This document shows positions 3,143 to 54,066 of a stretch of DNA of 56,450 nt, piece after piece. Position 1 is the stretch's first letter; each line of letters starts with the position of its first letter. Position numbers and translations under genes: made by a program. The notes beneath the pieces are model-generated. The model searched no databases. It saw only the letters and a program-made list of their open reading frames with translations, and was not told where the DNA came from. This stretch comes from a virus (Duplodnaviria > Caudoviricetes): the IMG/VR virus record IMGVR_UViG_3300011115_000308, positions 1 to 56,450 of that record. One strand, 5' to 3'.

Positions 3143-5193
3143 CAGATGCTCCTGTTAGCGACTTCCAGAGCGTGTGCGACAGCCTCGTCACTTTGCTTCA
3201 GCAGAGGCTCAGTTTCGGCGCTCCACCCCTTCTTAGCACGTTCTGCGGCCCGCACCAACTGGTCTGCATCCGCATCGTGCGGAGACACGCGGCCACCGGA
3301 CTTGCGGCCTTCACGTTGATCAGCAGTGGCAGCATACAGGGGCGCGGGGATCGGGTTGGTCATACGGGTTTCTGCAAGTTGCTTTGCCAGTTTCTGCCCC
3401 ATATCAGAAGCTAGGAAAGCCGCCCCTGCTTGGTTTGTTTTATTTTTAGCAAACCTTAAAACATTCGAACCAACCAGTGCGGCGGCGGCCAGTGCGGCGC
3501 TAGTTGAATTTAAACCTATTGGCGTACCTGTAAAAAAAGGATAAGAAAGCGCAGGAATTGCGCTTTGAACAATGTCAGACAATCCCAATCCTTGGTTGGC
3601 CCTCTCTGTTCGAACTACTTGATTTGGCGCGCCTAAATTTGCTTGACTGTCGTTAATTTTTCGCGCTGTGGCATTAAGTGTTTCTGTTGGGTCAAGGCCA
3701 AAAGGATCGGAAATTTTTTCCATTGTACGTGGGTCTATAATTCCATTGCTCCGCATTGCCCCCTCTGGTGAAGCTTCTGCGGCGGCCTTGGTTGCAAGGA
3801 AGTTTCTGTAATATCTGTTCAGTTCTTTAAACCCAGTTATTTTGCTGGCCTGACCAGTATTTTCCAAGCTTGTATAAAGGGCATCGTCCAAGACTTTTAC
3901 AAAATCCTGCGCGCTTTGTGCAGTTAATTTGCTTGTAGAGGTTCTTGATATTACGCCCATTTGCGTTCTCCAGTTGCGAAGGTCTTCAGCGGAAATTGTT
4001 TTTCCTGACGTTACCAAGCTTTCAAACTTGTTAGTTAGATCAGCAAACCCGCTCGGTATTATGTTTGATGAAACATCATTGTTGCGGCCCCAAGCTGAAA
4101 TAATTTCATCCATGTCATCAACATGTCTCGCCATGGGGGATACATCAACACCTTGGGAAAGTTTGTTGTATGCTTCCCCAAGTTTTTCACCATGTAGAGA
4201 TAGTGTGCCTCGTTGCGTAACTTTGTTTGTTGCGGGGTCTCTGATGTCTAACGTAAACCTGTTCAGACTAGGATCGCCTATGTCTGCCCCAATTGTTGCA
4301 TTGTAATCATCAGCAATTTTTTTAGGACTAAACTTCCCCATTCCAAGGTCCGTAGACCCTTCAATTGCACGAAGCTTTGGTAGATCATTGCTTGCGCTCA
4401 CGGGAATAGTGATGCCGCGCCCCTTCAAGTAAGCAAGCGAATCCGCACTCAAATTTGCCCCTGTGCTTGCAGATTTTCCTATTGCAGACCGAACAACGGC
4501 TTCAGGCATGGCGGCTAAAACACCAGCCCCCAAGCCGCCAAAAAAACGCGCCTTGTCTTCAAGTTCAGGGTAGTAACGATGGGCAATGTCTCCAGCGGTT
4601 TCACTCCCAACGGCTGGTGCAACCACATTTCGCAAGGCGCGCGATCCAATTTTTGCCGCAAGGCTTTTAGCTGGCCCCGCTGGAAACAACATGCCTGGGG
4701 CCATTTCGCCCGCAGTTTGTAAATAGTCTCCCAATTGCCCCTTTGGTTGGTAACCAAGAGTTTCAGGAAAATTGCGTTGCGCCGCGTCCATCACTGGCGT
4801 GTCGTAGCTTGGCATTAATGAACTCCAGTCTATCTTCCCTGTAGCTGGATCGCGGAATGGCTTATCAAAACGCATGGGCGGTGGGGTGTTGCCATTAGGC
4901 CCAGCGGCAACGTCGCTGATAGCCTTCAAAAGGTCAGCCGTTCCCGCAGCGCCAGCAAGCAATCCCTTCTGGCCGCTTTTGCCAAGGTCAGTCCAAGACT
5001 CGAACATTGGGCGTTGGTCACCAGCCAACTGCTGTTCTTTGTGGGTCGCTGCATCCTGATATTGCCGCCGTGTAGCATCTACAAACGCTTGGTTTGCTGG
5101 CGATCCCCCCGCAGGTGCAGGAGGGGGCTGGGACGGCCTGCCAGCGGTTTCCTTTAAGGAATCGTACAAAGCCCGTGTTTCTGCTTCAGTCAT
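3142..5193 (-). CDS. Putative internal virion/DNA ejection protein
   Basis: Start revised to ATG 5193, just past the upstream stop. Ala/Gly-rich helical protein with hydrophobic segments, following the large ejection gene. Ends RKSGGRV...VAHALEVA. Confidence 0.6.
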   Translation of the reverse strand: MTEAETRALYDSLKETAGRPSQPPPAPAGGSPANQAFVDATRRQYQDAATHKEQQLAGDQRPMFESWTDLGKSGQKGLLAGAAGTADLLKAISDVAAGPNGNTPPPMRFDKPFRDPATGKIDWSSLMPSYDTPVMDAAQRNFPETLGYQPKGQLGDYLQTAGEMAPGMLFPAGPAKSLAAKIGSRALRNVVAPAVGSETAGDIAHRYYPELEDKARFFGGLGAGVLAAMPEAVVRSAIGKSASTGANLSADSLAYLKGRGITIPVSASNDLPKLRAIEGSTDLGMGKFSPKKIADDYNATIGADIGDPSLNRFTLDIRDPATNKVTQRGTLSLHGEKLGEAYNKLSQGVDVSPMARHVDDMDEIISAWGRNNDVSSNIIPSGFADLTNKFESLVTSGKTISAEDLRNWRTQMGVISRTSTSKLTAQSAQDFVKVLDDALYTSLENTGQASKITGFKELNRYYRNFLATKAAAEASPEGAMRSNGIIDPRTMEKISDPFGLDPTETLNATARKINDSQANLGAPNQVVRTERANQGLGLSDIVQSAIPALSYPFFTGTPIGLNSTSAALAAAALVGSNVLRFAKNKTNQAGAAFLASDMGQKLAKQLAETRMTNPIPAPLYAATADQREGRKSGGRVSPHDADADQLVRAAERAKKGWSAETEPLLKQSDEAVAHALEVANRSI

Positions 5194-18277: not shown

Positions 18278-18957
18278 TATCTAAAATAACCCGAAAGCAT
18301 CGGGCTGATGTAGGTGTTGACCACTTCCACATCCTGCTCTGCGGCGATCTGGTAACTCTCGTCTGCCTGTCCCTTGAGCAGTTGCGCCATCTCAGGTGCC
18401 CAAATACGAGCCAGACGATAAGTCAGACCATCCGCAAAAGCTTCCAACCAGCGATAGGGAATTTCAACATTTTCGCCATTTTGGAGATTGGAATCTTGGA
18501 CCTGCCGAACGCGGTAATATTTCAGGATCGTGGCCGACGACCCGTCTGGCACGGGCCACAGGGTCAGAGTGGGTGACACCAATCGGTCAAACCAGTACGA
18601 TGTAGGGAAGCCCTGCTGGGTCTTGTTGGGGTAGGAGGCGTATTCTGTGCGCGAGATGGGCATGATCACGCGGTCAGGCCCGCTGGTTGTGGTGGTGTAG
18701 GCGTCCAGAACCATGACAGTGTTACCATCCACAGCGTAAGTGGCTTGGCCCTGTATCAGTGGCTCTGTGACCAGATCAACCGCCCATAAATTTACTCCCT
18801 GGTTGCTCCAACGCGACAGCATCATGTTCGTCGCCATGCGGGCGCTTTCCATATGCTCTTGCAGCACCGAGGTCGGACGGACCCCGATGTTCTGGTAGGC
18901 GTACAGGACAATTTCGCCCAGCGCCGGATTGAACGCATATGTTTCGCTGGTGGTCAT
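18277..18957 (-). CDS. Head completion/adaptor protein
   Basis: WSNQGVNLW, ISRTEYASYPNK, LWPVPD and EIPYRWLEAF motifs. Position in the structural operon. Confidence 0.6.
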   Translation of the reverse strand: MTTSETYAFNPALGEIVLYAYQNIGVRPTSVLQEHMESARMATNMMLSRWSNQGVNLWAVDLVTEPLIQGQATYAVDGNTVMVLDAYTTTTSGPDRVIMPISRTEYASYPNKTQQGFPTSYWFDRLVSPTLTLWPVPDGSSATILKYYRVRQVQDSNLQNGENVEIPYRWLEAFADGLTYRLARIWAPEMAQLLKGQADESYQIAAEQDVEVVNTYISPMLSGYFR

Positions 18958-20317: not shown

Positions 20318-21229
20318 TTACGAAGGTGTCGAACCGAAGACCGAACGCCAGTTATAGTAGGCGAACGAATAACGCTCATAACCCTTTACAAGCAGGTTAT
20401 CTGTAACAAAATCCACTTGCATATCCGTTTCAAACTTAACCCGTTCCATATAAGACAAACCATCAATGTTTGTCAAGAGGAACCAAGCGGATGCAGAGGT
20501 GAAGAAGTCGTTGACCATGTAGCCCTCTGGCAGACCGCCAGCGGTGGACATGATCGCGTTGACATCGTTGTCAGCCGTGCCTGGGCGCAGTTCCGTCTTC
20601 AGCAGGCGGATGGCTACGGGTTCCAGAGCGGCAGGAACGATCAGCTTACGGCCACGGGCGAAGACCTTCAGGCCAGCCTGATCGCGGAACTGGGTACGAA
20701 TAGCGATCATGCCGTTCAGCAGGGTCGATTCGTTCAGTTCCACTTGGATCGTGGGAGTGTTGGCAACCACACCGCCGTCAATGGGGTGGCTCAACGACAG
20801 CAGTGCCACACCGTCACCACCGATGGACGAGTTGTAGGTCGTCGCGGTGTTGAAGATGTTTGCCGCGTAGATTTCCTTGGTCTGGTTGAAGCTTTCAATC
20901 AGGCCGAGGTTTGACGGCTGGAACTGTGTTTTGTACAAGTTGTCGTCAATGGCCTTGCGGGTGATAGCGTACCCCAGACCGATTTCGACGTGTTCTTGGT
21001 TGTAGATGTAACGTTCGCCAGCGCCGTTATCGAAGGAGGTTTGGCCACCCTCGGTCTTCAGTTGTGCGAAGCCCAAGAAGCGCATCTCAGCGGTGCGTTC
21101 CAGCGCCATCTTCGAATTGTGCTTGGTGAACATCTTGTCGTACTGAGATGGGATCATCTCGTACTTGCCCTCAATCCCACGGAGGCCGGGGAGCAGAAGG
21201 TCTTTAATCGCAGAAAGATTAACAGCCAT
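20318..21229 (-). CDS. Major capsid protein (Mu gpT-like, HK97 fold)
   Basis: LLPGL, LGYAITRKAIDDNLY, GGDGVAL..HP, AWFLLT and YERYSF...WR..FG motifs. Strong SD and downstream terminator. Confidence 0.85.
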   Translation of the reverse strand: MAVNLSAIKDLLLPGLRGIEGKYEMIPSQYDKMFTKHNSKMALERTAEMRFLGFAQLKTEGGQTSFDNGAGERYIYNQEHVEIGLGYAITRKAIDDNLYKTQFQPSNLGLIESFNQTKEIYAANIFNTATTYNSSIGGDGVALLSLSHPIDGGVVANTPTIQVELNESTLLNGMIAIRTQFRDQAGLKVFARGRKLIVPAALEPVAIRLLKTELRPGTADNDVNAIMSTAGGLPEGYMVNDFFTSASAWFLLTNIDGLSYMERVKFETDMQVDFVTDNLLVKGYERYSFAYYNWRSVFGSTPS

Positions 21230-21242
21230 TTCCTATTGCTCC

Positions 21243-22196
21243 TTACATGCCAGCGAAGTTGCGGGGCATAGCGTTGTTGAAGCCGACCACGATCTTGTTG
21301 TAGCCGGACGTTGCATCGTTACCGTTGACGCCCGAAAGTGGAGCGGCTTGACCCGGCAAGTAGTTTGCCAGAGCGATGATGCGGAACGGGAGCGCAGAGT
21401 TTGCGCCAGTCACACCAGCCGAGGACAGCGTGAATTGGTCAGCAAACATGGTTGAGAGGCCGTTGGCGGTGTTGCCATTGGTTTCGGCGGTGGTGACGCT
21501 GTCGTTCCAGTTGAACCCGATGTTCTCGCCGACTTGAGCTTGACCCACTGCCGTTGCGGTAGTGTTCGAGTTTGCCGTCTGCACAATAAAGCGCGCATTC
21601 GGGTCGGTAATGACATAGGCTTCCACATCGTTTGAAGTGTCCGAACCAGGCCAGTAGTTCGACCAGACGGTGCGCTTCTGAGCGGTGGACAGGTACTTGC
21701 AGCCAGCAAACACGCCAGCGACAGGGGTGTACACGGTAACCACGGGGGTCGAGGTTGCCGAAGTTGCAGCGGCAACGCCAGTGCTTTGAACCACAACAGT
21801 CGTGGCGGTTGCCGAGATGATTGTGAACACACCGTTCGGGACGCCAGTAGCGTTGCTTATAACCACAACACCGCCCACGGGGGGCGCGTAAGTGGTTGAG
21901 GCAAAAGTCGGGATGTTGGCGGTGCTGGACGAGATTGCCGTGTAGGTGATCGTCATCGCGCCAGTGGCGACAGTGGCGATACCAGTTGCAGACACGGTCA
22001 GGGTGACGGGGCCAGTTGCCTGAGTGATATAGCCAGTGCCCACGCCAGTGGCGTTGTAGGCCTGCATGACCGGATCATTCAAGAAGATTGGGGTCGTATT
22101 GCTCGACACAATGGCAGCCATCGTCTGCTCATAAGTCGGCGAAGAACCAGCACCAGAGTACTGGGCAAAACCGTTTGGCGCAAAGGTGTTCGCCAT
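21243..22196 (-). CDS. Capsid decoration/cement-like protein
   Basis: Start revised to ATG 22196 (MANTFAPNGF). GVFAGCKY and YVITDPN motifs. Immediately upstream of the capsid gene. Confidence 0.6.
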   Translation of the reverse strand: MANTFAPNGFAQYSGAGSSPTYEQTMAAIVSSNTTPIFLNDPVMQAYNATGVGTGYITQATGPVTLTVSATGIATVATGAMTITYTAISSSTANIPTFASTTYAPPVGGVVVISNATGVPNGVFTIISATATTVVVQSTGVAAATSATSTPVVTVYTPVAGVFAGCKYLSTAQKRTVWSNYWPGSDTSNDVEAYVITDPNARFIVQTANSNTTATAVGQAQVGENIGFNWNDSVTTAETNGNTANGLSTMFADQFTLSSAGVTGANSALPFRIIALANYLPGQAAPLSGVNGNDATSGYNKIVVGFNNAMPRNFAGM

Positions 22197-22325
22197 GTCG
22201 GAAATCTCCTTTTCAGGAGGTCCATTCATCGCGCACCGAGGCGAGTCTAGAACCGGGGAATTGTGCAATCTCCCACACCGAGGGGAGATAAGGTTACAAT
22301 ATACATGATTTTGTGTGCTTGTCTA
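22197..22325 (-). promoter_or_regulatory. Capsid-operon promoter and structured 5' leader
   Basis: TAGACA-16 bp-TATATT. Two hairpins with CTCGGTGY loops. SD paired in CTCCT-GAAA-AGGAG. Confidence 0.55.
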
Positions 22326-22327
22326 GC

Positions 22328-22432
22328 GGGTGGTTGATTGGCCGTCTTTCCGGCCTGTCATTCCTCTAAGGAAAGCCCCAACCACGAAGCTCCTCAAAAC
22401 GGATCAAAGAAAAGGATCAAACGTCAGGAGTG
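22328..22432 (-). ncRNA. Candidate structured small RNA (about 105 nt)
   Basis: Own promoter at 22438-22466. Stems CTCCT/AGGAG, GTGGTTG/CAACCAC, TTCCT/AGGAA and GGCCG/CGGCC. No plausible ORF. Confidence 0.5.
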
Positions 22433-22437
22433 CAGCT

Positions 22438-22466
22438 TTTCTACTCTTTGCGTGGGGTTGTGTCAA
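22438..22466 (-). promoter_or_regulatory. Sigma70-like promoter upstream of the candidate sRNA
   Basis: TTGACA-17 bp-TAGAAA. Confidence 0.6.
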
Positions 22467-22596
22467 CAACTGGCATGAACACCGACACATGAGGTTCCAG
22501 TTTGTCCCAAGCTTCTTGGACGGCGGGCGTCCCCTCTGATCTGATGACCTTACGGAGACGCTCTATGTATTTGTAGATGGTGATGGGCTTAATCAT
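22441..22596 (-). CDS. 51-aa hypothetical protein (below ORF-track cutoff)
   Basis: MIKPITIYKYIERLRKVIRSEGTPAVQEAWDKLEPH... ATGA overlap with the upstream stop. Confidence 0.6.
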   Translation of the reverse strand: MIKPITIYKYIERLRKVIRSEGTPAVQEAWDKLEPHVSVFMPVVDTTPRKE

Positions 22597-23106
22597 TCGG
22601 GGATCGGGATCGCCTCGTACTTCTTGCTGATCTTGACCAGTGGGTCGCCCTTGTTGGTGCGCTCAAACTCGCCATTTCTGGACGGCTGAGACAACTGAGC
22701 TTCCTTGTCACGCATCTGCATACGCGCCTTGCGAAGTTCCGCGTTGCGGGCATCTTGGGTGATTTCCAGCGGACGCTCCATCAGCACCATGCCCTTGCGG
22801 GTGATTTCCCCGCCCTTGTATCCCATTGGCATCAGTTCGGGGTGACGTGACGCGGGAACGCTTTCCCAGCCCTTACGGGCCAGCGCCACTTGGTGGGCGG
22901 GGTCTTCAGCGCCGAGGATCGTGCGGGTTTTCCATTCGTAGGACCATCCGTCTGGGATTATGCCCAGTTCAATGTAATATTCGTCGGTGCCAGTGTCGTT
23001 TAGATCAGCGGCGTGTCTATTTAGTTCCGCTGTCCGGCGGTCGGCGCGTTCGCGCGGGCTTTCCTCTGCGGGGGGGGGCGGGGCGCATTTCGGGGCGAAG
23101 TGTCAT
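22593..23106 (-). CDS. Head-morphogenesis-region protein with apparent frameshift in a 9-nt homopolymer
   Basis: The frame of 22593-22889 stays open and protein-like (EESPRERA...IPDGWSYEWK) up to 23102. The ATGs at 23106 and 23088 are one base out of frame across the run at 23070-23078. Confidence 0.6.
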
Positions 23107-23935
23107 TGAATTTTCCCTTCCTTTTTGAGGGCCACTTGTTCTTGGCATAATCCTCTGGTTTCATTCCCATCATCTCTGCCATTTCTCGTTCGGCGGCAGA
23201 AAGACGTACCACGTTGGAGCTTCTAGACTGATCCCCGCGATTAGAAGGCGCAGCCGCTGGTGCCGCATCTCGCCTTTGTACCACCTTTGCTGCGTACTGA
23301 TCATTGGTGTCGCTTTGAACGTTGCGCGACCCAATTTTCAGTGTGTCCTCAATTGCCGAGAAGTAATCATCGCTGTCAGTGGGGATACCATCTGCAACCG
23401 CAAGGTTGTGGGCGGCAAGCATTTTGGCATTCAGGCGCGCATCACGCACAAATTCAGGGTGACGGCGCACCCAGTCTGCACTGCGCGGCGACAATTGCGA
23501 TGCAAACGCCTCCACGGGGTCAGCCGGAGGTAGTTGCGGCTCCGGTTCGCGCGGTGCGCTTTCCATTGCCTGCCGACCGTTGTTTAACTGAAGCAATTTG
23601 GCTTCGTGGGACGACATTTCCCGTTGAATCTTGGTCGCGCGGTCAAAATCACCATTCTGCAAGGCGTAAGTGTGCGCTTGGCTAAGGAGTTCAATGTCCC
23701 GATTGACCGTGTCGATGGCATTTACCACCAGTTGGAAGTTTGTCTCGTCCACTTCGTTGCGTGAGCGGTGAACAACAACGGCAGCCTCATGCACTTGGCG
23801 TTCGGCGTGTATTCTTGCCGACCGTTCCGCGTCCAGTTGTCGCTTGAGGTCGGTAATATACGCGGGTTCGTCATCTTGAGACGCTTCCGTTTCCTCTACG
23901 GGCAGTACAAGAGTGATGTCTTCTTCGTTTTCCAT
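23021..23935 (-). CDS. Capsid scaffolding protein (true stop possibly 23103)
   Basis: Acidic N-terminus, coiled coil, VVRLSAAEREMAEMMGMKPEDYAKNK. The adjacent frame continues VALKKEGKIQ-stop. Confidence 0.65.
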   Translation of the reverse strand: MENEEDITLVLPVEETEASQDDEPAYITDLKRQLDAERSARIHAERQVHEAAVVVHRSRNEVDETNFQLVVNAIDTVNRDIELLSQAHTYALQNGDFDRATKIQREMSSHEAKLLQLNNGRQAMESAPREPEPQLPPADPVEAFASQLSPRSADWVRRHPEFVRDARLNAKMLAAHNLAVADGIPTDSDDYFSAIEDTLKIGSRNVQSDTNDQYAAKVVQRRDAAPAAAPSNRGDQSRSSNVVRLSAAEREMAEMMGMKPEDYAKNKWPSKRKGKFNDTSPRNAPRPPPQRKARANAPTAGQRN

Positions 23936-23946
23936 CTTTTTTCCCT

Positions 23947-24336
23947 TCAGTACACGGAATCGGGGTCTTGGACCCGACCCTTGATGTAAATGTCGTCAAA
24001 GATACGGCACAGGACGTTATTCACGGTGATTGACCACCCTTCGGACGGGCGAAAGATCAGCCAATCATGTTCTTTGAACTCCATGCTTTCAAACCATGTG
24101 CCGTCTTGTTCAAACGCCTTGGGGCCGCGCTTGACCAGAAGACCTACCTTTGATTGGTACTTGTCTTCGTCAACGTGGCTATCCGTCAGGATCAAGCCGC
24201 TTTTTGTTTTAGTTGGGCGTAAATAAGTGGCTAAAAGCACTTGATTGTGGAACAGTTCTATATTAGAAATGTCTCCAAGTGCATCTAGGATGGTTTGTTT
24301 TGGGTCTTGTTCGTGCAACATGGGCATATGCGGCAT
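23947..24336 (-). CDS. groES: Phage co-chaperonin GroES (Cpn10-like)
   Basis: Mobile loop KTKSGLILT, VGLLVKRGP.AF and terminal DD..I.G.V. Start revised to ATG 24336. Confidence 0.8.
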   Translation of the reverse strand: MPHMPMLHEQDPKQTILDALGDISNIELFHNQVLLATYLRPTKTKSGLILTDSHVDEDKYQSKVGLLVKRGPKAFEQDGTWFESMEFKEHDWLIFRPSEGWSITVNNVLCRIFDDIYIKGRVQDPDSVY

Positions 24337-24346
24337 GGTTAATCCT

Positions 24347-24553
24347 TCAGAGGGTTTTGTTGACGACTGTCTGTGCATCGTCGCACAGTTCGATGACCAT
24401 ATCCAACGCGGCGATCCTACCGACCGCCTCGCGGTATTGTTCTATGGTCGTGATTGAATGCCCCCCAACAATGTTGGTGGCAATGTGATGTCGTTCTTCG
24501 CTTATCAGCCTACGAAGCTCGCGTTCGAAAACGCTGCTTGCCGTCTGGATCAT
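24347..24553 (-). CDS. Small helical hypothetical protein
   Basis: EQYREAVGRIAALD amphipathic helix. Upstream of groES. Confidence 0.55.
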   Translation of the reverse strand: MIQTASSVFERELRRLISEERHHIATNIVGGHSITTIEQYREAVGRIAALDMVIELCDDAQTVVNKTL

Positions 24554-38952: not shown

Positions 38953-39282
38953 TTAGAAGTTGTAGTCGTAGAATTTGCGCGGCTCGCGGGCGACACGGTG
39001 CTTGCCGTAGGCCGACCAGAAGTAACCATCAGCGCGCTTGTAGGCTTTGATTGCGGGGTTGGTTTCGCTGGCCACGATGAACCACCGTTGGTCCTCTTGG
39101 TTGGCACAGTTGGCAGTGAAGCCGCCAGCAACGAAGTTTGGCACCCACGCCGGATCGCGTTGCACGTCCATCTCGCGGATGACGATCTGCTTGCCAGACT
39201 TGCTGACCGACAGGATTTCGAAGGGTTGGACATCAGTGTAGCCGATCAGGTTCGCGTAGCCAGTGGGTAGGGTGCAGGTCAT
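38953..39282 (-). CDS. Hypothetical early protein
   Basis: Start revised to ATG 39282 after the CCAACCACATGGAG leader. Confidence 0.7.
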   Translation of the reverse strand: MTCTLPTGYANLIGYTDVQPFEILSVSKSGKQIVIREMDVQRDPAWVPNFVAGGFTANCANQEDQRWFIVASETNPAIKAYKRADGYFWSAYGKHRVAREPRKFYDYNF

Positions 39283-39305
39283 TTTAATCTCCATGTGGTT
39301 GGGGG

Positions 39306-39521: not shown

Positions 39522-39558
39522 TTTCAGTCTTCGGTGGTTGGTTGGTTTCCGTTCTTGA

Positions 39559-39587
39559 TCAGTACATCGTACGAAACACCCCGTCAA
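39559..39587 (-). promoter_or_regulatory. Early promoter containing the CGTACGATG box
   Basis: TTGACG-17 bp-TACTGA. Confidence 0.6.
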
Positions 39588-40862: not shown

Positions 40863-41048
40863 TTAAAGGCTCCGGTATGTGGTTGAGATTGCGGCCTCTA
40901 CGGCCTCGGCTTCAGCGCGGGTGGCGTAGGACTTGAAGGGGTAACGCTCGCCCGTAACGGCTTGGATCGCGTCACGCAACTTCTCATTTTTCAAGCTGCT
41001 GGTCAGGATTTCCAGTTCCCAGCCCGACGCGGATTGATAGACGTACAT
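40863..41048 (-). CDS. Hypothetical early protein
   Basis: Preceded by CCAACCACTGGAG. Confidence 0.65.
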   Translation of the reverse strand: MYVYQSASGWELEILTSSLKNEKLRDAIQAVTGERYPFKSYATRAEAEAVEAAISTTYRSL

Positions 41049-41092
41049 GGTGTTCTCCAGTGGTTGGGTGGGGGCCTCAGCCCCCGTTCAGA

Positions 41093-41314
41093 TCAGTCGC
41101 ACAGGCTCTCGTAGCGGTACTCGGCCAAGCCCTCGGCGTACTCTTGCAGGGCCTCGTTCCAGCCGTGGTCATGCCAGTGCTTGTAAGCCTCTTCGTACTC
41201 TTCCTCAGTGGGTTCGTCGCCGTCCTTGTCCCACTCAATGTCGCCATATTCCGGCTCTGCGTAGAAGCCGTAGTCGCCGTAGGTGAAGTGGAAGCAGCGG
41301 TGTAGGTTGTTCAT
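41093..41314 (-). CDS. Highly acidic hypothetical early protein
   Basis: Preceded by a promoter and CCAACCACGGAG. E/D/Y-rich. Confidence 0.65.
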   Translation of the reverse strand: MNNLHRCFHFTYGDYGFYAEPEYGDIEWDKDGDEPTEEEYEEAYKHWHDHGWNEALQEYAEGLAEYRYESLCD

Positions 41315-41346
41315 TTTCGTCTCCGTGGTTGGTGTGTCGATGACCC

Positions 41347-41375
41347 TGTGTACATCGTACGCAACACAGGGTCAA
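41347..41375 (-). promoter_or_regulatory. Early promoter containing the CGTACGATG box
   Basis: TTGACC-17 bp-TACACA. Confidence 0.6.
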
Positions 41376-41404: not shown

Positions 41405-41629
41405 TTACGCGGCGACGATGTCGCTGAAGAAGTCCAGCACCGCATCACGGTTGTCGGCGGCGGTTTCCTCGAAGCAGAGGAAGATACCATCGGTGTCGTA
41501 CTTCCCGCAGATCAAGCCTGCCTTCAGCACGATCTGGCAGCCATTGCCCTCGGACCAGAACCGCCCGATCTGTGCTGCACGGCGCTTGCCGATCCAGCGG
41601 TTGATTTGGTTTTGTGAGATGCTTTCCAT
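41405..41629 (-). CDS. Hypothetical early protein
   Basis: Start revised to ATG 41629 after CCAACCACAGGAGG. Confidence 0.65.
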   Translation of the reverse strand: MESISQNQINRWIGKRRAAQIGRFWSEGNGCQIVLKAGLICGKYDTDGIFLCFEETAADNRDAVLDFFSDIVAA

Positions 41630-41679
41630 CTCGGCCTCCTGTGGTTGGCGGCCAACCCACCACGGGCTGGCCATAACCC

Positions 41680-42451: not shown

Positions 42452-42629
42452 TGCTCGTGATCCTTATCCGTTTGAAATCCGCCTTAAGCTCCCGCCGCAG
42501 GTCGGACATGTGTTCACCTTCATAAACGCCGCACGGCAACTCCACCGTCCAACGGTCGCTGGTCTGGTAAAAGCGCACGGGGAAACGTTGCCCCGTCGCC
42601 TCAAACAGCACCCACTGATTGTCTTTCAT
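42438..42629 (-). CDS. Hypothetical early protein
   Basis: Start revised to ATG 42629 after CCAACCAAGGAGG. Confidence 0.6.
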   Translation of the reverse strand: MKDNQWVLFEATGQRFPVRFYQTSDRWTVELPCGVYEGEHMSDLRRELKADFKRIRITSNAVV

Positions 42630-42655
42630 CCCATCCCTCCTTGGTTGGTGGCTGC

Positions 42656-42746: not shown

Positions 42747-42782
42747 TAACTCACTGACCCCAACCAACCACAGGAGACTACC

Positions 42783-43061
42783 ATGTCCATCAACTTCGCC
42801 ATCGCACTCGCCGACCGCTTCGCCGCCGCTAAGGCTGCCCACGAGGCCGCCACCGAGGCCCTCGACGCCCTCAAGGCCGAGATCAAGGCCGCTGGGATCG
42901 AACGCCACATCGGCCTGACCTGCGACATCGTCCTTGCGCTGTCCGAACAGCGCCGCATCGACACCAAACTTCTGCAAGCTCTTCTGACCGACGAGCAGAT
43001 CGAGGCCTGCAAGAAGCCAGTGCTGGTCGAAACCATCCGCGTCCGCGCTAAAGGTCTTTAA
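42783..43061 (+). CDS. Hypothetical protein
   Basis: CCAACCAACCACAGGAG leader. Strong codon bias. Confidence 0.8.
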   Translation: MSINFAIALADRFAAAKAAHEAATEALDALKAEIKAAGIERHIGLTCDIVLALSEQRRIDTKLLQALLTDEQIEACKKPVLVETIRVRAKGL

Positions 43062-44491: not shown

Positions 44492-44881
44492 TCACTGCTT
44501 GGTGATGATGTTGCTGGACAGGTTTTCCATCATGGCGGTCAGCGGGTTCAGGAACGCAACCTCAATGCCGATGTCCTTGCCGTGGTCGATCAGCTTGCCG
44601 ACCGCAGCAATAAACGCATCGCGCTTGGCATCGTCAATGGACTTGAGGTCTTCCACATGCCGCTCTGCATCGGCAAACAGGGCTTCAATGCCCGCATCGC
44701 AAGACCCGTGGAAAAACTTGTCTACCTGTGCGCTGTGCGTGTCGGTGCGATAAAACAAGTTGACCGTCAGGTCGTAGCCAATCCAGTTGACGTAGACGAC
44801 GATCTTGGGGTTGTAATAACCTTTTGCGGCGCAGAGTTCTGCGATGCGGTTGGCTTCGGCTTTGATCTGTGTAGCGTTCAT
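44492..44881 (-). CDS. Hypothetical protein
   Basis: CCAACCACTGGAG leader. Confidence 0.75.
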   Translation of the reverse strand: MNATQIKAEANRIAELCAAKGYYNPKIVVYVNWIGYDLTVNLFYRTDTHSAQVDKFFHGSCDAGIEALFADAERHVEDLKSIDDAKRDAFIAAVGKLIDHGKDIGIEVAFLNPLTAMMENLSSNIITKQ

Positions 44882-44925
44882 GGCAATCTCCAGTGGTTGG
44901 GTTGGGGTAGTGACATATCTTTATG

Positions 44926-50559: not shown

Positions 50560-50590
50560 TACCACCCCCAACCAGAGTGAGACATACGCA

Positions 50591-50848
50591 ATGACAAGTC
50601 GGGCCGAATGGCGGGAAACCGCAATTGAAGAATTAATTAAACTTTTTGATCATTTTGAATGGGTTGATAGCACTATGCTTAAAAAAAGAATGAAAGAAAT
50701 TGGGTTTAATCCTCCAGAAGAATTTAAAGATTGGGGTTTTCCATTTCGTGCCGCCAAAAAAGCAGGAAAGATTAAAAAATTAGGATACCATATGTCAACA
50801 GAAAAACAATGTAATGGCAGGCCGATTACAAAATGGGAAAAAGCATGA
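50591..50848 (+). CDS. Low-GC hypothetical protein
   Basis: Start revised to ATG 50591. ATGA overlap with the exonuclease gene. Confidence 0.6.
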   Translation: MTSRAEWRETAIEELIKLFDHFEWVDSTMLKKRMKEIGFNPPEEFKDWGFPFRAAKKAGKIKKLGYHMSTEKQCNGRPITKWEKA

Positions 50849-51714
50849 TGGAACAAAGATCACCAGAGTGGTTTACCGCTCGTAAAGGCCGCATCACCGG
50901 ATCAATGGTGGGCGCTGCCCTCGGCCTAGACCCCAATACCAGCCGCGATGAGGCGATGCGCCGCATGGTGCGCGCTTATCAGGGGCTGCCGTCAGAGTTT
51001 GTTGGCAACATCGCCACATCGTGGGGCACCAACCACGAAACGGAAGCCCGCGAGGCTTTTGAGTACCAATTTAAACCCGTAGCACCTGCCACCTTCGTGG
51101 TACATCCCACGCTGCCGTGGCTGGGGGCTAGCCCTGACGGGTACGTTGCCAACCATGCCCTGCTTGAGATCAAATGCCCCTTTGGCCTGCGCGACAAGCC
51201 CAAGCCCGTGCCGTTCAAGAGCATCAACATCCAGCCGCATTACTACGCCCAAATGCAAATCCAGATGTACTGCACCGACAAGATCGCCTGCTATTTTTGG
51301 CAGTGGACGCCGAACGATCACAAACTGGAGATCGTGGACTATGACCCGATCTGGATCGAAGTGAACCTGCCCAAACTTGAGGCGTTCTACAACGAGTTCT
51401 TGGCGATCCGCGACGAGGGTATGCCGGAGCCGGAAGAAAAGCTTGAGATCGACACCATAGGCCACCGCTACATGATTGCAGAGTACGATGTACTCACCAA
51501 GCAGATCAAAGAGGCTGAAGACCGCAAGAAGGAAATCTTGGATGCGCTGGTGTTTGAAAGCGCCGGACAAGATGCCGTGATCTGCGGGCGCAAGCTTACG
51601 CTGGTGCATCGGGCGGGCAGCGTGTCCTACGCCAAGGCCATCAAAGAGCTTGCCCCCGATGCCGATTTGGAAAAATGGCGCGGTGAACCTTCAACATACT
51701 GGACCCTGAAATGA
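50845..51714 (+). CDS. YqaJ/lambda-exonuclease family nuclease
   Basis: QRSPEW..RKGRITGS, WG..HE, GASPDG, EIKCP and YYAQMQIQM. Confidence 0.9.
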   Translation: MMEQRSPEWFTARKGRITGSMVGAALGLDPNTSRDEAMRRMVRAYQGLPSEFVGNIATSWGTNHETEAREAFEYQFKPVAPATFVVHPTLPWLGASPDGYVANHALLEIKCPFGLRDKPKPVPFKSINIQPHYYAQMQIQMYCTDKIACYFWQWTPNDHKLEIVDYDPIWIEVNLPKLEAFYNEFLAIRDEGMPEPEEKLEIDTIGHRYMIAEYDVLTKQIKEAEDRKKEILDALVFESAGQDAVICGRKLTLVHRAGSVSYAKAIKELAPDADLEKWRGEPSTYWTLK

Positions 51715-52251: not shown

Positions 52252-52281
52252 TCTGTCACCAACCAACCACGAGGTTTTACG

Positions 52282-54066
52282 ATGACATTGCGCCCCTACC
52301 AGCAAGAAGCCCATGACGAGATCATAAAGTGGATTAAGAGAAACACTGCCCCATGCTGCATTGAGGCGGCCACGGGCGCGGGCAAGTCCCACATCATTGC
52401 GGCACTGGCAGATACCATCCACGGCATCTCGAAAGGCAAGCACATCCTGTGCCTCGCCCCCAGCGCCGAACTGGTCAACCAGAATGCTGAAAAGTTCCGC
52501 CTGACGGGCGGCAAGTGTTCCATCTTCTCGGCAAGCGCCGGAGAGAAAAGCCTGCGCCACCCCGTGGTGTTCGGGACGCCTGGCACCGTGATCAATTCCA
52601 TCAAGCGGTTCGGCAAAGAGTTCGCGGCGGTGGTGATTGACGAATGCCACGGCCTGACCGCCACGGTCAAAGAGATCGTGGAAGAGATCAGGAAAGTGAA
52701 CCCCATGCTGCGCGTCATGGGGATGTCGGCCACGCCGTACCGCATGAACACGGGCTACATCTTCAAGCACTGGGCTGACGGCAAGCCTGTCCGCGAAGAC
52801 CAGACCAAAGACCCCTATTTCGACACCTGCGTCTACCGCATTCAAGCCTACGAACTGATCGAACAGGGTTTCCTGACCAAGCCCACCATCGGCAAGGCTG
52901 GGGCTGTCGGATACCACACCCTCAACATGGAACTGAACAGCCGTGGCCAGTTTGACGCTGCCGACATCGACCGCGCGTTCCACGGGCAGGGCCGCAAGAC
53001 CGCCGCCATCATGGCCGACATCGTTGATCAGGCCGCCTACCTGCGTGGCGTGATGGTGTTTGCGGCCACGGTCAAACACGCCAAAGAGTGCATGGCATCC
53101 CTGCCACCCGAACTGTCGGCGCTGATCACCGCAGACACGCCTAAGCCGGAGCGCCAGAAGATCATCGCGGACTTCAAGGCCAAGAAGATCAAGTATCTGG
53201 TCAACGTGTCCGTTCTGACCACTGGGTTCGATGCGCCCCACGTTGACATGATCGCCATCCTGCGCCCAACCGAAAGCGTGGGCCTGCTTCAGCAGATCAT
53301 CGGTCGCGGCTTGCGCGTGGACGAGGGCAAGGACACCTGCGTGATCCTCGACTATGCCGAGAACCTGCCCCGCCACTGCCCCGAAGGGGATATTTTCAAC
53401 CCCAAGGTCAAGGCCAAAAAAGGTAACCTAGAGGTAGATTTTGTTACCTGCGAATGCGAGTTCTGCGGCGTTGAGAACGAGTTTTTGGGCCGCCCCAACA
53501 AGGAAGGGTATCCCATCGACCACAATGGGTATTTCTTGGACCTCGACAACAACCGCATTGAAACCAAGTGGGGTGCGATGCCCGCGCACTTCGGTCGCCG
53601 TTGCCGCGCATCCGACACAGTGGCTGGTGAGCGTATCCAGTGCGGCTATCGCTGGACATCCAAGCCGTGCCCCCACTGCAAGGCCGACAACGACATCGCG
53701 GCGCGGTATTGTGAGAAATGCAAGGGCGAGATCGTCAACCCCAACGACAAGCTCAAGCTTGCGTTCAAGGCCATGAAGAAAGACCCCACGCAGCGCCAGA
53801 CTGACAACGTGGTCCTGTTCGACGTGAAGAACGCCCTGTCCCGCAGCGGCAACGCGACATTGAAGGTTGACGTGGTTACCGAATACAGGTCATTCTCTTA
53901 CTGGATCATGCGCCACCCCAAGCACCCCGCGTCCGTTCGGGAAACAAACCAGTTTGGCGCGCTTGATGGTGTAAAGCCCAAGACGATTACTTATAAATTA
54001 AACCCCCAGACGAGCTTCTACACTGTTCTGGGCTACAATGGACCCGCCGATGCACCTCCCGAATGA
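52282..54066 (+). CDS. Superfamily 2 helicase (RadD/YejH-like) with zinc fingers
   Basis: LRPYQ, ATGAGKS, DECH, SATP, LTTGFDAP, QIIGRGLR and CxxC pairs. Confidence 0.92.
   Translation: MTLRPYQQEAHDEIIKWIKRNTAPCCIEAATGAGKSHIIAALADTIHGISKGKHILCLAPSAELVNQNAEKFRLTGGKCSIFSASAGEKSLRHPVVFGTPGTVINSIKRFGKEFAAVVIDECHGLTATVKEIVEEIRKVNPMLRVMGMSATPYRMNTGYIFKHWADGKPVREDQTKDPYFDTCVYRIQAYELIEQGFLTKPTIGKAGAVGYHTLNMELNSRGQFDAADIDRAFHGQGRKTAAIMADIVDQAAYLRGVMVFAATVKHAKECMASLPPELSALITADTPKPERQKIIADFKAKKIKYLVNVSVLTTGFDAPHVDMIAILRPTESVGLLQQIIGRGLRVDEGKDTCVILDYAENLPRHCPEGDIFNPKVKAKKGNLEVDFVTCECEFCGVENEFLGRPNKEGYPIDHNGYFLDLDNNRIETKWGAMPAHFGRRCRASDTVAGERIQCGYRWTSKPCPHCKADNDIAARYCEKCKGEIVNPNDKLKLAFKAMKKDPTQRQTDNVVLFDVKNALSRSGNATLKVDVVTEYRSFSYWIMRHPKHPASVRETNQFGALDGVKPKTITYKLNPQTSFYTVLGYNGPADAPPE

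What the first reader, a model, noticed from the sequence alone, without database searches (positions are those of the whole stretch)
22328..22466. Separately promoted structured sRNA carrying the complement of the early-gene leader motif
Seen: TTGACA-17-TAGAAA drives about 105 nt with a hairpin whose loop has TTTGATCC twice, then a three-way junction (GTGGTTG/CAACCAC, TTCCT/AGGAA, GGCCG-GAAAGA-CGGCC). Its segment CUUCGUGGUUGG pairs over 12 nt (one G:U) with CCAACCACGGAG at 41321 and over the CCAACCA(C) core with most other leaders, next to or over their SD. Inference: one trans-acting RNA from the late region could shut off translation of about ten early genes. Caveat: the seed can also pair with the RNA's own 3' CAACCAC, so it may be switchable or merely structural.
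Basis: partly seen in the sequence, partly recalled or inferred. Interest (0 to 1): 0.8.

Follow-up and report, generated by a model that had tools for sequence, protein, structure and literature searches.

The report
Phage small RNA module targeting early-gene leaders
A conserved, self-promoted structured RNA in an uncultured phage carries the exact complement of a motif found just before the ribosome-binding sites of about ten early genes, and its last hairpin belongs to a very widespread phage hairpin that usually sits just in front of tRNA genes.

Summary

Relatives change the picture. 12 of 80 related loci carry the same module, always with the promoter. It has three parts:
- Hairpin A presents GUGGUUGG and is supported by compensatory changes.
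- Hairpin B varies in sequence but always folds.
- Hairpin C is UGACA-stem-GAAAGA-stem.

In 7 of the 12 loci a tRNA-Met gene follows within 4-5 nt. In this window the tRNA is deleted and there is no terminator.

The leader motif occurs only in genomes that carry hairpin A: 4 with it, 7 without. This also holds for orthologous genes, but the four carriers appear to form one clade.

Hairpin C is one copy of a very widespread, phage-enriched hairpin. About 15-20% of copies lie 3-12 nt before a tRNA gene. It has no Rfam match, and my literature searches found no description.

A trans-acting antisense role is the best reading (about 0.5). No expression data could test it.

The parts
22461..22466 (-). 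-35 box TTGACA of the module's own promoter, inside the 3' end of the 51-aa ORF
   Evidence: TTGACA with a 17-nt spacer is kept in 12 of 12 module-bearing relatives, behind two different upstream ORFs.
22438..22443 (-). -10-like TAGAAA; its TAG is the stop codon of ORF 22441-22596(-)
   Evidence: Relatives have TAACAA, TAACAC, TAAAAA, TAACTT, TAAAGA or TACCAC at the same spacing. Two early promoters show the same TTGAC-N18-TAnnnA geometry. The consensus scan did not list it.
22390..22430 (-). Extra 5' hairpin with two UUUGAUCC copies (22421-22414, 22408-22401). Present only here, and in a different form in L005/L006.
   Evidence: fold; absent from most relatives. In 9 of 12 relatives the -10 ends 12-15 nt before CGUGG.
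22375..22390 (-). Hairpin A, GCUUCG-UGGU-UGGGGC. The seed GUGGUUGG (22385-22378) occupies the top pair, the loop and the 3' arm.
   Evidence: All cells pair. Compensatory U-A to C-G change in the window and G-C to A-U in L003. CGUGGUUGGG is invariant in 9 distinct sequences.
22361..22373 (-). Hairpin B, UUCCU-UAG-AGGAA: a spacer hairpin whose sequence and length vary
   Evidence: Every relative has a different hairpin here, with loops UAG, AAA, GUA, UAAA, GAAA, GCAA or UUCG.
22339..22360 (-). Hairpin C, UGACA-GGCCG-GAAAGA-CGGCC-A: one copy of a widespread phage hairpin motif
   Evidence: It is the only copy in this genome.
22330..22336 (-). CAACCAC, the internal partner that pairs with the seed in this window and closes the three-way junction
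   Evidence: Relatives have (A)ACCA here, and the pairing is not conserved.
22298..22325 (-). Promoter-like TAGACA-16-TATATT of the capsid operon, starting 3 nt after the module
   Evidence: It aligns with TTGACA...CATTAT in MW202675 and with TAGACA...TATATT in L008, L007 and L011.
22197..22291 (-). Conserved 5' leader of the 317-aa gene and major head gene operon. It is not part of the sRNA, but module transcripts would run into it.
   Evidence: Major head protein by phrog_371.
41321..41332 (-). Best target leader, CCAACCACGGAG, before the ATG at 41314 (73-aa ORF)
   Evidence: 12 pairs with one G:U.
52263..52274 (+). Target leader CCAACCACGAGG before the ATG at 52282 (594-aa ORF)
   Evidence: Orthologues in seed-bearing genomes keep the motif; those in seed-lacking genomes do not.
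42764..42771 (+). Leader motif before the ATG at 42783 (92-aa ORF)
44893..44900 (-). Leader motif before the ATG at 44881 (129-aa ORF)
41641..41648 (-). Leader motif before the ATG at 41629 (74-aa ORF). A local GUGGGUUGG could pair with it in cis.
41060..41067 (-). Leader motif before the ATG at 41048 (61-aa ORF)
39534..39541 (-). Leader motif CCAACCACCGAAG before the ATG at about 39521
39295..39302 (-). Leader motif before the ATG at 39282 (109-aa ORF)
42642..42648 (-). Variant leader CCAACCAAGGAGG before the ATG at 42629 (63-aa ORF), just after TTGACC-17-TATGGT
50568..50574 (+). Variant leader CCAACCAG before the ATG at 50591 (85-aa ORF)

Best explanation
The stretch 22328-22466 (minus strand) is a conserved non-coding RNA module with its own host-type promoter.

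It has three hairpins:
- Hairpin A presents GUGGUUGG in its loop and 3' arm, at or near the 5' end of the RNA.
- Hairpin B is a variable spacer.
- Hairpin C is a copy of a widespread phage hairpin (UGRCA, 5-bp stem, GAAAGA loop, then A).

In most relatives a tRNA-Met gene follows within 4-5 nt. The ancestral product would then be an sRNA-tRNA co-transcript, from which RNase P cleavage at the tRNA 5' end would release the sRNA (inferred). In this window the tRNA has been deleted. The module abuts the capsid-operon promoter and has no terminator.

The most likely function is antisense action in trans. GUGGUUGG(G) would pair with the CCAACCAC element that lies 0-4 nt 5' of the Shine-Dalgarno sequence of about 10-12 small early genes. 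In relatives the pairing continues into the Shine-Dalgarno (GUCUC against GAGAC). Pairing there would occlude ribosome binding and shut off early-gene translation.

Shown: the conservation, the structure, the complementarity and the co-occurrence.
Inferred: that the RNA is transcribed, how it is processed, and that it represses rather than activates.
For: Module and promoter:
- 12 of 80 related loci carry hairpins A and C, and all 12 have TTGACA-17-TAnnnn upstream.
- The module, TTGACA included, sits behind two different upstream ORFs.
- The promoter shares its geometry with two early promoters. Of the 4 matches to that pattern in the window, 3 are these sites.

Structure:
- On 9 distinct sequences, hairpins A and C pair in 99 of 99 cells.
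- 5 pairs change on both sides, against 0.6 in shuffles; 0 of 500 shuffles reach 5.
- Hairpin B differs in every lineage yet always folds.

Seed:
- CGUGGUUGGG is invariant, while its proposed internal partner varies without compensation (CAACCA, CACCA, ACACCAC).

Independence from the tRNA:
- The module is kept where the tRNA is present (7 of 12 loci).
- It is kept where an HNH endonuclease gene has replaced most of the tRNA (L004, L007).
- It is kept where the tRNA is deleted (L003, L011, L016 and the window).

Targets:
- The 6-mers CAACCA, CCAACC and AACCAC just 5' of Shine-Dalgarno sequences occur 12, 10 and 10 times against 1.4, 0.9 and 0.8 expected in the window. G001 is similar.
- Candidate starts with at least 9 nt of Watson-Crick complement to the 28-nt 5' part: 7 of 229 in the window (shuffles mean 0.45, max 4) and 6 of 240 in G001 (0.58, max 4).
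- At 8 nt or more: 13 in G001 (2.3, max 11) and 12 in G006 (1.7, max 9).

Co-occurrence:
- Genomes with hairpin A (window, G001, G006 and the incomplete G007) have about 11, 12, 12 and 3 such leaders.
- G002-G005, G008, G009 and MW202675 have 0-2.
- Leaders of the orthologous 594-aa gene carry the motif in 3 of 3 seed-bearing genomes and 0 of 3 seed-lacking genomes. The 206-aa gene behaves likewise, with the motif partial or variant in two of its three seed-bearing genomes.

Orientation:
- All 8 exact copies next to a start site are on the sense strand and track the Shine-Dalgarno rather than promoters.
Against: - There is no evidence of transcription or of a discrete RNA. The three RNA libraries found held only contigs of relatives, which cannot show ends or strand.
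- No terminator follows the module in this window, so transcripts would run into the capsid operon.
- In this window the seed is predicted to be almost fully paired with CAACCAC (unpaired probability about 0.01). In L015 the loop nucleotides reach 0.5-0.96.
- The fold is no more stable than shuffled sequence.
- Duplex energies do not separate real from shuffled seeds in this GC-rich genome.
- The four seed-bearing genomes look like one clade, judged only from percent identities; no tree was built. The co-occurrence may therefore reflect a single evolutionary event.
- Partial motifs (GCCAACCA, CCAACCAAGGAGAC) occur before two orthologous genes in seed-lacking genomes.
- The -10 is weak.
- The complementarity could stem from an inverted duplication of a translation-initiation region.
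Confidence: 0.5

Rival explanations
1. The module acts only in cis. It would be the structured 5' leader or processing and stability module of a phage tRNA-Met transcription unit. In this window it would be a remnant that now forms part of a long leader of the capsid operon. The match to the early leaders would be a by-product, for example an inverted copy of a translation-initiation region, or the UGGU loop matching ACCA-like sequence.
For: - A tRNA-Met gene follows within 4-5 nt in 7 of 12 module-bearing loci.
- Hairpin C lies 3-12 nt before tRNA genes in many unrelated phages: 18 of 100, 21 of 114, and 23 of 158 against 1 and 0 in controls.
- This window has no terminator.
- The seed is self-paired in this window.
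- In relatives the reverse complement of the 5' part resembles a whole initiation region (CCAACCACG-AGACUG), as descent by duplication would predict.
Against: - Hairpins A, B and C and the promoter are kept in all 5 cases where the tRNA is deleted or destroyed: L003, L004, L007, L011, L016, and also this window.
- MW202675 keeps hairpin C and the tRNA-Met without hairpin A, and it has no leader motif. Hairpin A is therefore not needed for the tRNA.
- The seed is invariant while its cis partner drifts.
Confidence: 0.22
2. CCAACCAC/GTGGTTGG is a double-stranded DNA operator for a regulator specific to this clade. The copy in the module would simply be one more operator, in the opposite orientation.
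For: - The motif is over-represented.
- Some copies lie a few bases after promoters: 42642, 41326 and 39535.
- A DNA site works in either orientation, which would explain an inverted copy.
Against: - All 8 exact copies next to a start site are on the sense strand, 0-4 nt before the Shine-Dalgarno sequence.
- This includes genes with no promoter of their own: 41048 follows a hairpin and 39282 follows the upstream stop codon. An operator should track promoters, and either orientation should occur.
- The inverted copy lies in a hairpin supported by compensatory changes.
Confidence: 0.08
3. The UGGU loop of hairpin A binds ACCA 3' ends: that of the co-transcribed tRNA-Met, of other tRNAs, or of the (A)ACCA that follows hairpin C. 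This would resemble the UGGN bulge of T-box leaders (a recalled analogy). The leader motif would be unrelated.
For: - The loop is UGGU in all 9 sequences.
- Hairpin C is followed by (A)ACCA in all relatives.
- The tRNA-Met gene ends in GCAACCA.
Against: - Conservation extends well beyond UGGU, to CGUGGUUGGG (10 nt).
- The module persists without the tRNA.
- This reading does not explain why the leader motif occurs only with hairpin A.
Confidence: 0.06
4. There is no function. The promoter-like site, the fold and the complementarity are chance features of an intergenic spacer.
For: - Fold energies are ordinary.
- The -10 is weak.
- There is no Rfam match.
Against: - The module and its promoter are conserved in 12 loci, while flanking sequence is rearranged.
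- There is covariation.
- An exact 8-mer match to the most enriched leader motif inside a roughly 60-nt element has a chance of about 1 in 1000 (my estimate).
Confidence: 0.04

Closest known systems
GcvB-type trans-acting sRNAs, whose G/U-rich seed pairs with C/A-rich elements at or upstream of ribosome-binding sites of many mRNAs (recalled; no paper read here)
   Same: One G/U-rich seed (GUGGUUGG) faces a C/A-rich element (CCAACCAC) placed just 5' of the Shine-Dalgarno sequence of about ten mRNAs. The regulon is defined by a shared leader motif.
   Different: It is phage-encoded and aimed at the phage's own early genes. There is no terminator or U-tail in this window. In relatives it is linked to a tRNA. 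There is no sequence or Rfam relation. Dependence on Hfq is unknown.
Phage antisense immunity RNAs processed by RNase P: C4 of P1/P7 and CI of P4 (recalled)
   Same: A small structured phage RNA whose exposed sequence is complementary to sites at ribosome-binding regions of phage genes. Maturation would be tied to RNase P, here through the adjoining tRNA in relatives.
   Different: No match to any Rfam family at E up to 10 over 22100-22600, both strands. The targets are about 10-12 dispersed leaders 17-30 kb away on other transcripts, not two sites in the same leader. RNase P would make the 3' end of the RNA rather than the 5' end.
Small RNAs released from tRNA precursors or clusters, such as tRNA spacer-derived sRNAs in E. 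coli and the stable RNAs of the T4 tRNA cluster (recalled)
   Same: In relatives the RNA is co-transcribed with a tRNA and separated from it by 4-5 nt.
   Different: It lies upstream of the tRNA and has its own conserved seed hairpin. It persists where the tRNA is lost.
Lambda boxB (nut) hairpins and HK022 put RNA: antitermination elements in early-operon leaders (recalled). These apply to hairpin C only.
   Same: A 5-bp stem that covaries around an invariant purine-rich loop. In an E. coli lambdoid-type prophage, three copies lie in the leader of the leftward early operon, among terminator-like hairpins.
   Different: The loop has six bases (GAAAGA) and needs a 5' UGRCA. No boxA was noticed by eye, and none was searched for. 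This phage has one copy rather than two. The motif is found in very diverse phages and often 3-12 nt before tRNA genes. No partner protein is known.
Theta (HDV-like) ribozymes next to phage tRNA genes (PMC10879173; I read section 7 and passages found by term search)
   Same: A small RNA element enriched in phages and tightly associated with viral tRNA genes.
   Different: Theta ribozymes lie at the 3' end of tRNAs and fold as a nested double pseudoknot. Hairpin C lies 5' of tRNAs and is a plain 22-nt hairpin.

Membership tests
Trans-acting base-pairing sRNA | Own promoter | tested here: met
   TTGACA-17-TAGAAA. TTGACA-17-TAnnnn is present in 12 of 12 module-bearing relatives and behind two different upstream ORFs. 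This is sequence-level evidence only.
Trans-acting base-pairing sRNA | Defined 3' end (intrinsic terminator or processing site) | tested here: not met
   No terminator-like site on the minus strand in 21500-23500. Relatives have a tRNA 4-5 nt downstream that could supply an RNase P cut, but it is absent here.
Trans-acting base-pairing sRNA | Discrete, accumulating transcript | not testable with these tools
   Only contigs from three RNA libraries were available. They came from relatives and give no ends or strand.
Trans-acting base-pairing sRNA | Conserved seed, more conserved than structure alone requires | tested here: met
   CGUGGUUGGG is invariant in 9 distinct sequences, while the 3' partner varies.
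Trans-acting base-pairing sRNA | Targets enriched for complementarity at translation-initiation regions | tested here: met
   Complement of 9 nt or more in 7 of 229 candidate starts, against 0.45 in shuffles (max 4), with similar results in G001 and G006. Energy-based scoring was uninformative.
Trans-acting base-pairing sRNA | Seed accessible | tested here: inconclusive
   Unpaired probability is about 0.01 in the window but 0.5-0.96 for the loop nucleotides in L015.
C4 / CI-type phage antisense RNA | Match to a curated family model | tested here: not met
   No Rfam family at gathering score anywhere in the window. At E up to 10 over 22100-22600 there were only RybB (19.6 bits against 40) and cHP (14 bits against 40).
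C4 / CI-type phage antisense RNA | Targets lie in the same leader transcript | tested here: not met
   The targets lie at 39-52 kb, partly on the other strand.
tRNA or tRNA-like gene | Cloverleaf recognised by ARAGORN or the Rfam tRNA model | tested here: not met
   No tRNA or tmRNA in the window.
Lambda-type nut site (boxB), for hairpin C | Short covarying stem with an invariant purine-rich loop | tested here: met
   103 of about 125 pattern matches form a perfect 5-bp stem. In the three variable stem positions, G:U pairs number 15 against 3 A:C.
Lambda-type nut site (boxB), for hairpin C | Copies downstream of both early promoters, with a boxA and an N-like protein | tested here: not met
   There is one copy per genome in the window, G001, G006 and G007, and it is not in the early region. 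boxA and an N-like protein were not searched for.
Theta ribozyme | Cleavage site within 5 nt of a tRNA 3' end, with an HDV-like double pseudoknot | tested here: not met
   Hairpin C lies 3-12 nt 5' of tRNA genes and is a simple hairpin. Definition taken from PMC10879173, section 7.

The most novel reading that the evidence does not exclude
Two linked claims.

(1) A phage carries a small mobile unit made of a promoter, an sRNA and a tRNA. The 5' hairpin of the sRNA would switch off a whole set of early genes through a shared leader element placed next to their Shine-Dalgarno sequences.

(2) The last hairpin of that sRNA belongs to an apparently undescribed RNA motif found across phages of every base composition: UGRCA, a covarying 5-bp stem, an invariant GAAAGA loop, then A.
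- The motif marks the 5' side of phage tRNA genes and of some leaders.
- Because it is the same in phages of very different hosts, I infer that it engages a universal host machine, such as RNA polymerase (antitermination), RNase P or RNase E (processing), or a factor that recognises the identical GGAAAGAC of 23S rRNA around A2058.
Probability: 0.3. Interest if true: 0.8.

Novelty: new variant of a known kind. Interest (0 to 1): 0.62.

Why it matters
If the RNA acts as proposed, a virulent-type phage times its early-to-late switch with one antisense RNA aimed at a motif shared by about ten leaders. That would be a regulon-style control resembling bacterial sRNAs such as GcvB. It differs from the one-target antisense RNAs known from P1, P4, P22 and lambda.

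The link to a tRNA gene would add a route for making phage sRNAs, through RNase P cleavage of a co-transcript.

Separately, hairpin C matches no Rfam family, and my five literature searches found no description of it. Working out what it does could explain how phages express or protect their tRNAs and untranslated leaders.

Tried and rejected
Thermodynamic support: fold energies of the 109-nt and 244-nt stretches are ordinary (z = -0.88 and -0.49), so they give no argument either way.

Energy-based target ranking: RNAduplex energies of the 28-nt 5' part against all candidate start regions did not separate the real seed from 30 shuffles. At -16 kcal/mol or lower, 137 of 229 were real against a shuffle mean of 142.8 in the window. 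I dropped this in favour of counting contiguous complements.

Expression: the look-up of sequencing runs gave three RNA libraries with small shares (0.04-0.06). Laying them gave only contigs of relatives at 85-95% identity. These cover coding and non-coding parts alike and cannot show ends or strand. This is no evidence for or against a transcript.

Known families:
- Rfam found nothing in the window.
- It found only tRNAs, plus one weak sub-threshold Plastid-ycf2 hit (29 bits against 65.7), in 9 relatives, and one tRNA in 6 further loci that carry hairpin C.
- PHROGs named only the major head protein. Pfam named only a Cpn10-like protein at 23947-24378.

Ideas about hairpin C that I rejected or could not support:
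- Promoter with TGACA as the -35: the tRNA starts fall inside or right after where the -10 would lie.
- Terminator: there is no U run.
- CCA-end mimic: only 33 of 162 copies have ACC within 4 nt.
- Hammerhead, HDV-like or theta ribozyme: the core or the position does not fit (by eye).
- General handle of antisense RNAs: there is no excess of complements of 10 nt or more between the 60 nt upstream and the rest of the locus (124 hits against 153 and 116 in controls, 101 hairpins).
- Hairpin followed by a terminator: only 6 of 124, at +9 to +18, against 1, 3 and 0 in controls.

The crude ORF-context analysis was weak because GC-rich genomes give spurious ORFs.

BLAST of two hairpin-C loci against named phages and E. 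coli: searches found nothing. Searches found two Stenotrophomonas phages with only hypothetical proteins. led to the E. coli prophage.

Literature: five searches found no description of the hairpin or of this sRNA. That is the full basis for 'not found in print'. Supplements were not consulted.

No structure prediction, fold search, complex prediction, protein-atlas or large protein-homology search was run, because the question concerns RNA.
Full report
Setting. The window is a whole IMG/VR virus record of 56,450 bases, estimated 95% complete. Most genes are on the minus strand. The finding lies on the minus strand in a 244-nt gap (22197-22440). Upstream is a 51-aa ORF (22441-22596). Downstream is a 317-aa gene (21243-22196), which is followed by the major head protein gene (20318-21229; phrog_371, E = 4.7e-10). 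Only one named phage record is similar (MW202675.1, 73% identity over 44% of a 2-kb query). No Rfam family and no tRNA are found in the window.

Checking the observation. TTGACA is at 22466-22461, followed by 17 nt and TAGAAA at 22443-22438. TTTGATCC occurs twice. The three stems of the junction are there. The TAG of TAGAAA is the stop codon of the upstream ORF. The consensus scan did not call this promoter, because its -10 lacks the final T. The scan did call TAGACA-16-TATATT (22325-22298) immediately downstream, and it found no terminator on this strand. The leader motif is real. CCAACCAC occurs 11 times against 3.1 expected, and 0 of 100 shuffles reach that. Eight copies, plus about four close variants, lie in sense orientation 0-4 nt before the Shine-Dalgarno sequence of small genes between 39 and 52 kb. 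None lies before a gene start in the structural half of the genome.

What relatives show. A search with the 317-aa protein found 596 relatives in IMG/VR, and the best 80 loci were fetched. Twelve of the 80 (L003-L011, L015, L016, L023) carry the same element. All twelve have TTGACA, a 17-nt spacer and TAnnnn upstream. In nine of them the -10 ends 12-15 nt before CGUGG, so the conserved sequence sits at the very 5' end of the predicted RNA. In L016 and L023 the element, TTGACA included, follows a different, cysteine-rich ORF. The promoter therefore belongs to the element and is not a side effect of coding sequence. TTGAC-N18-TAnnnA is also the geometry of two early promoters of this phage. Three of the four matches to that pattern in the window are these three sites.

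Anatomy of the module. The conserved parts are (A/G)GUCUCGUGGUUGGGAC, then a hairpin that differs in every lineage, then UGACAGGCCGGAAAGACGGUC followed by (A)ACCA. In relatives the minimum-energy fold is three tandem hairpins:
- Hairpin A is GUCUCG-UGGU-UGGGAC.
- Hairpin B is the variable hairpin.
- Hairpin C is the GAAAGA hairpin.

On an alignment of nine distinct sequences, hairpins A and C pair in 99 of 99 cells. Five pairs change on both sides, against 0.6 in shuffles, and 0 of 500 shuffles reach five. Slid controls drop to 20-55% paired. The window itself supplies one compensatory change in hairpin A (U-A to C-G) and L003 supplies another (G-C to A-U). Its 5' strand never changes, while the 3' strand reads CAACCA, CACCA or ACACCAC. 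The eight-pair version exists only in this window. Here it wins by about 3 kcal/mol over the hairpin-A fold and leaves the seed about 1% unpaired. In L015 the loop nucleotides are 0.5-0.96 unpaired. The window also has an extra 5' hairpin, the one with the two UUUGAUCC copies, which most relatives lack.

Link to a tRNA. In 7 of the 12 loci a tRNA-Met(CAU) gene begins 4-5 nt after the (A)ACCA (ARAGORN; Rfam tRNA at 56-68 bits; sequences). MW202675 also has hairpin C followed by a tRNA-Met and a terminator at this position, but it has no hairpin A. In L004 and L007 an HNH endonuclease gene has replaced most of the tRNA and left its 3' end. In L003, L011, L016 and the window the tRNA is gone. In the window and L011 the module is fused to the capsid promoter. 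The promoter and the three hairpins survive all these rearrangements. That argues the module has a function of its own and is not just a tRNA leader. Where the tRNA is present, RNase P cleavage would release the upstream RNA with hairpin C and a short U-rich tail at its 3' end. This is an inference. In the window nothing in the sequence defines a 3' end.

Does the seed go with the leaders? I fetched nine further records whole and 45 kb of MW202675. Records with hairpin A (window, G001, G006, and G007 at 63% complete) have about 11, 12, 12 and 3 leaders of the form (A/C)CCAACCAC-N0-4-GGAG. Records without it (G002-G005, G008, G009, MW202675) have 0-2. In the window the 6-mers CAACCA, CCAACC and AACCAC, counted in the 14 nt before Shine-Dalgarno-like sites, occur 12, 10 and 10 times against 1.4, 0.9 and 0.8 expected. 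G001 is similar, and nothing comparable appears in G002-G005.

Orthologous genes behave the same way.
- The 594-aa gene has the motif in the window, G001 and G007, and not in G002, G003 or G008.
- The 206-aa gene has the motif or a variant of it in the window, G001 and G006, and not in G003, G004 or G008.
- The 92-aa and 129-aa genes show only partial GCCAAC(C)A in some seed-lacking records, and one CCAACCAAGGAGAC in G003.

All these phages share the early-promoter element GTACGATGTA. The leader motif is therefore an addition specific to the seed-bearing group.

I counted candidate start regions with at least 9 nt of contiguous Watson-Crick complement to the 28-nt 5' part. The result was 7 of 229 in the window (200 shuffled queries: mean 0.45, max 4) and 6 of 240 in G001 (0.58, max 4). 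At 8 nt or more, G001 gave 13 (2.3, max 11) and G006 gave 12 (1.7, max 9). In relatives the complementarity runs on into the Shine-Dalgarno sequence. GUCUC-GUGGUUGG faces CCAACCAC-(G)-GAGAC, and many leaders there read CCAACCAC-N-GGAGACUGAC-AUG. In the window the 5' arm has changed to GCUUC, so pairing is 8-12 nt.

Caveats on this test:
- The four seed-bearing records look like one clade (594-aa protein 93% and 73% identical, against 61-67% for the others). The association may therefore rest on one evolutionary event. No tree was built.
- Duplex energies were uninformative.
- No expression data could be obtained.

Hairpin C is a widespread phage motif.
103 of about 125 matches close a perfect 5-bp stem, where about 1% would be expected by chance (my estimate), and the stems covary freely.
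- In the three variable stem positions, G:U pairs outnumber A:C 15 to 3. The hairpin therefore matters on this strand, as RNA or as single-stranded DNA.
In 114 distinct copies the 5' flank was still U, G, A or G, C, A in 81-96% of them at each position. An A followed the stem in 88 of 114, and then came a G-poor tract.
- A co-oriented tRNA gene starts 3-12 nt after the hairpin in 18 of 100 copies and 21 of 114. By my own strict test it does so in 23 of 158, against 1 and 0 in two controls. The tRNAs are of many kinds.
- One contig has four copies, each in front of a tRNA or tRNA-like gene. A 322-kb contig has five tandem copies 78 nt apart.
Several of those precede tRNAs, as prophages would. 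The motif is therefore enriched in phages.
- In this phage family it occurs once per genome, and only in records that have the module or, in MW202675, the tRNA.
- Other contexts: a few copies are followed by a terminator at +9 to +18 (6 of 124), and some lie 20-40 nt before an ORF.
- An E. coli lambdoid-type prophage has three copies in the leader of its leftward early operon, right after a TTGACC-17-TAATAT promoter and interleaved with terminator-like hairpins. GGAAAGAC occurs there 9 times in 12.5 kb against 0.36 expected, always in the sense of the local operon.

I could not settle what hairpin C does. The candidates are a processing or stability element at the boundary of untranslated RNAs, a nut- or put-like element acting on RNA polymerase, or a protein-binding handle. 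A literature listing shows that GGAAAGAC is also E. coli 23S rRNA 2056-2063, the A2058 region (abstract of PMC12887398). For an 8-mer in a 2.9-kb rRNA this may be chance, at about 4% by my estimate. No Rfam family matches hairpin C. Five literature searches found no description. Theta ribozymes, the known tRNA-linked phage RNAs, lie at tRNA 3' ends and are a different thing.

Verdict. The idea remains unproven, and it looks weakest in this particular window, where the tRNA and 3' end are lost and the seed is locked in a stem. I rate the antisense shut-off model at about 0.5. A purely cis or remnant role rates about 0.2, and a DNA operator about 0.1 or less. By kind this is a new variant of phage antisense and trans-acting sRNA regulation. 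The hairpin C motif is the most novel by-product and deserves its own follow-up.

Noticed in passing
window 22197-22291 (-); same place in L003-L082: The 5' leader of the capsid operon is conserved across the whole family, far beyond the sRNA-bearing group. It has two hairpins with CYCGGYG-type loops (UCUCCC-CUCGGUGU-GGGAGA and a UCGCC-UCGG-UGCGCGA-like one). A third hairpin, CUCC-UGAAAA-GGAG, buries the Shine-Dalgarno sequence of the 317-aa gene. It looks like a translational control element for the head genes.
   Followed up: partly
window 39563-39572 (-), 41351-41360 (-), 51483-51492 (+), 18595-18604 (+) and one-mismatch copies: GTACGATGTA occurs 10 times with up to 1 mismatch, against 1.0 expected. 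At 39.5 and 41.3 kb it fills the spacer and -10 of TTGAC-type early promoters. The same element precedes early genes in G001, G004, G006, G008 and MW202675.
   Followed up: partly
L007 1790-2160 and L004 (same sequence): [quoted passage not shown] The junction after hairpin C appears to be a hot spot for insertions and deletions.
   Followed up: no
L008 2110-2385 (also L015, L007 and, in part, L003): A non-coding, hairpin-rich stretch of about 270 nt lies between the tRNA-Met and the capsid promoter in relatives. It is absent from the window. Rfam found no match in L015, L007 or L003.
   Followed up: no
L126 (IMGVR_UViG_3300015050_001523, 322,518-base contig), minus strand 4129-4512: Five tandem copies of hairpin C lie 78 nt apart in a jumbo-phage-sized contig, with nearly identical spacers.
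   Followed up: no
L441 5990-6330 (E. coli NZ_CM180093.1 prophage): The leader of the leftward early operon holds three hairpin C copies, two terminator-like hairpins, and two ribosome-binding-site look-alikes (GAGGAAAGACCAAC) that lack a start codon. True ribosome-binding sites of this prophage read GAGGAAAGACCAATG. The region matches 454 of 5426 E. coli genomes.
   Followed up: partly
hairpin C loop, window 22344-22351 (-): GGAAAGAC is identical to E. coli 23S rRNA 2056-2063, the A2058 macrolide, Erm and TLR13 site (search listing and abstract of PMC12887398). It may be chance or rRNA mimicry.
   Followed up: no
window 41641-41670 (-): The leader of the 74-aa ORF (ATG at 41629) has GUGGGUUGG 3 nt upstream of its own CCAACCAC. 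This leader could therefore hide the motif in a local hairpin.
   Followed up: no
L001 3600-3660 (-) and L033 about 2245-2280: A T-arm-like GGUGCAGGUUCRAnYCCUGC, with flanking structure, lies upstream of hairpin C in MW202675 and L033. ARAGORN and Rfam do not call it. It is annotated as a 44-aa hypothetical protein in MW202675.
   Followed up: no
window 22323-22385 (-): A 20-codon frame (GTG at 22385 to TAG at 22325-22323) with an upstream GAGGAG overlaps hairpins A to C. In relatives it stops after 7 codons, so it is not a conserved coding frame.
   Followed up: partly
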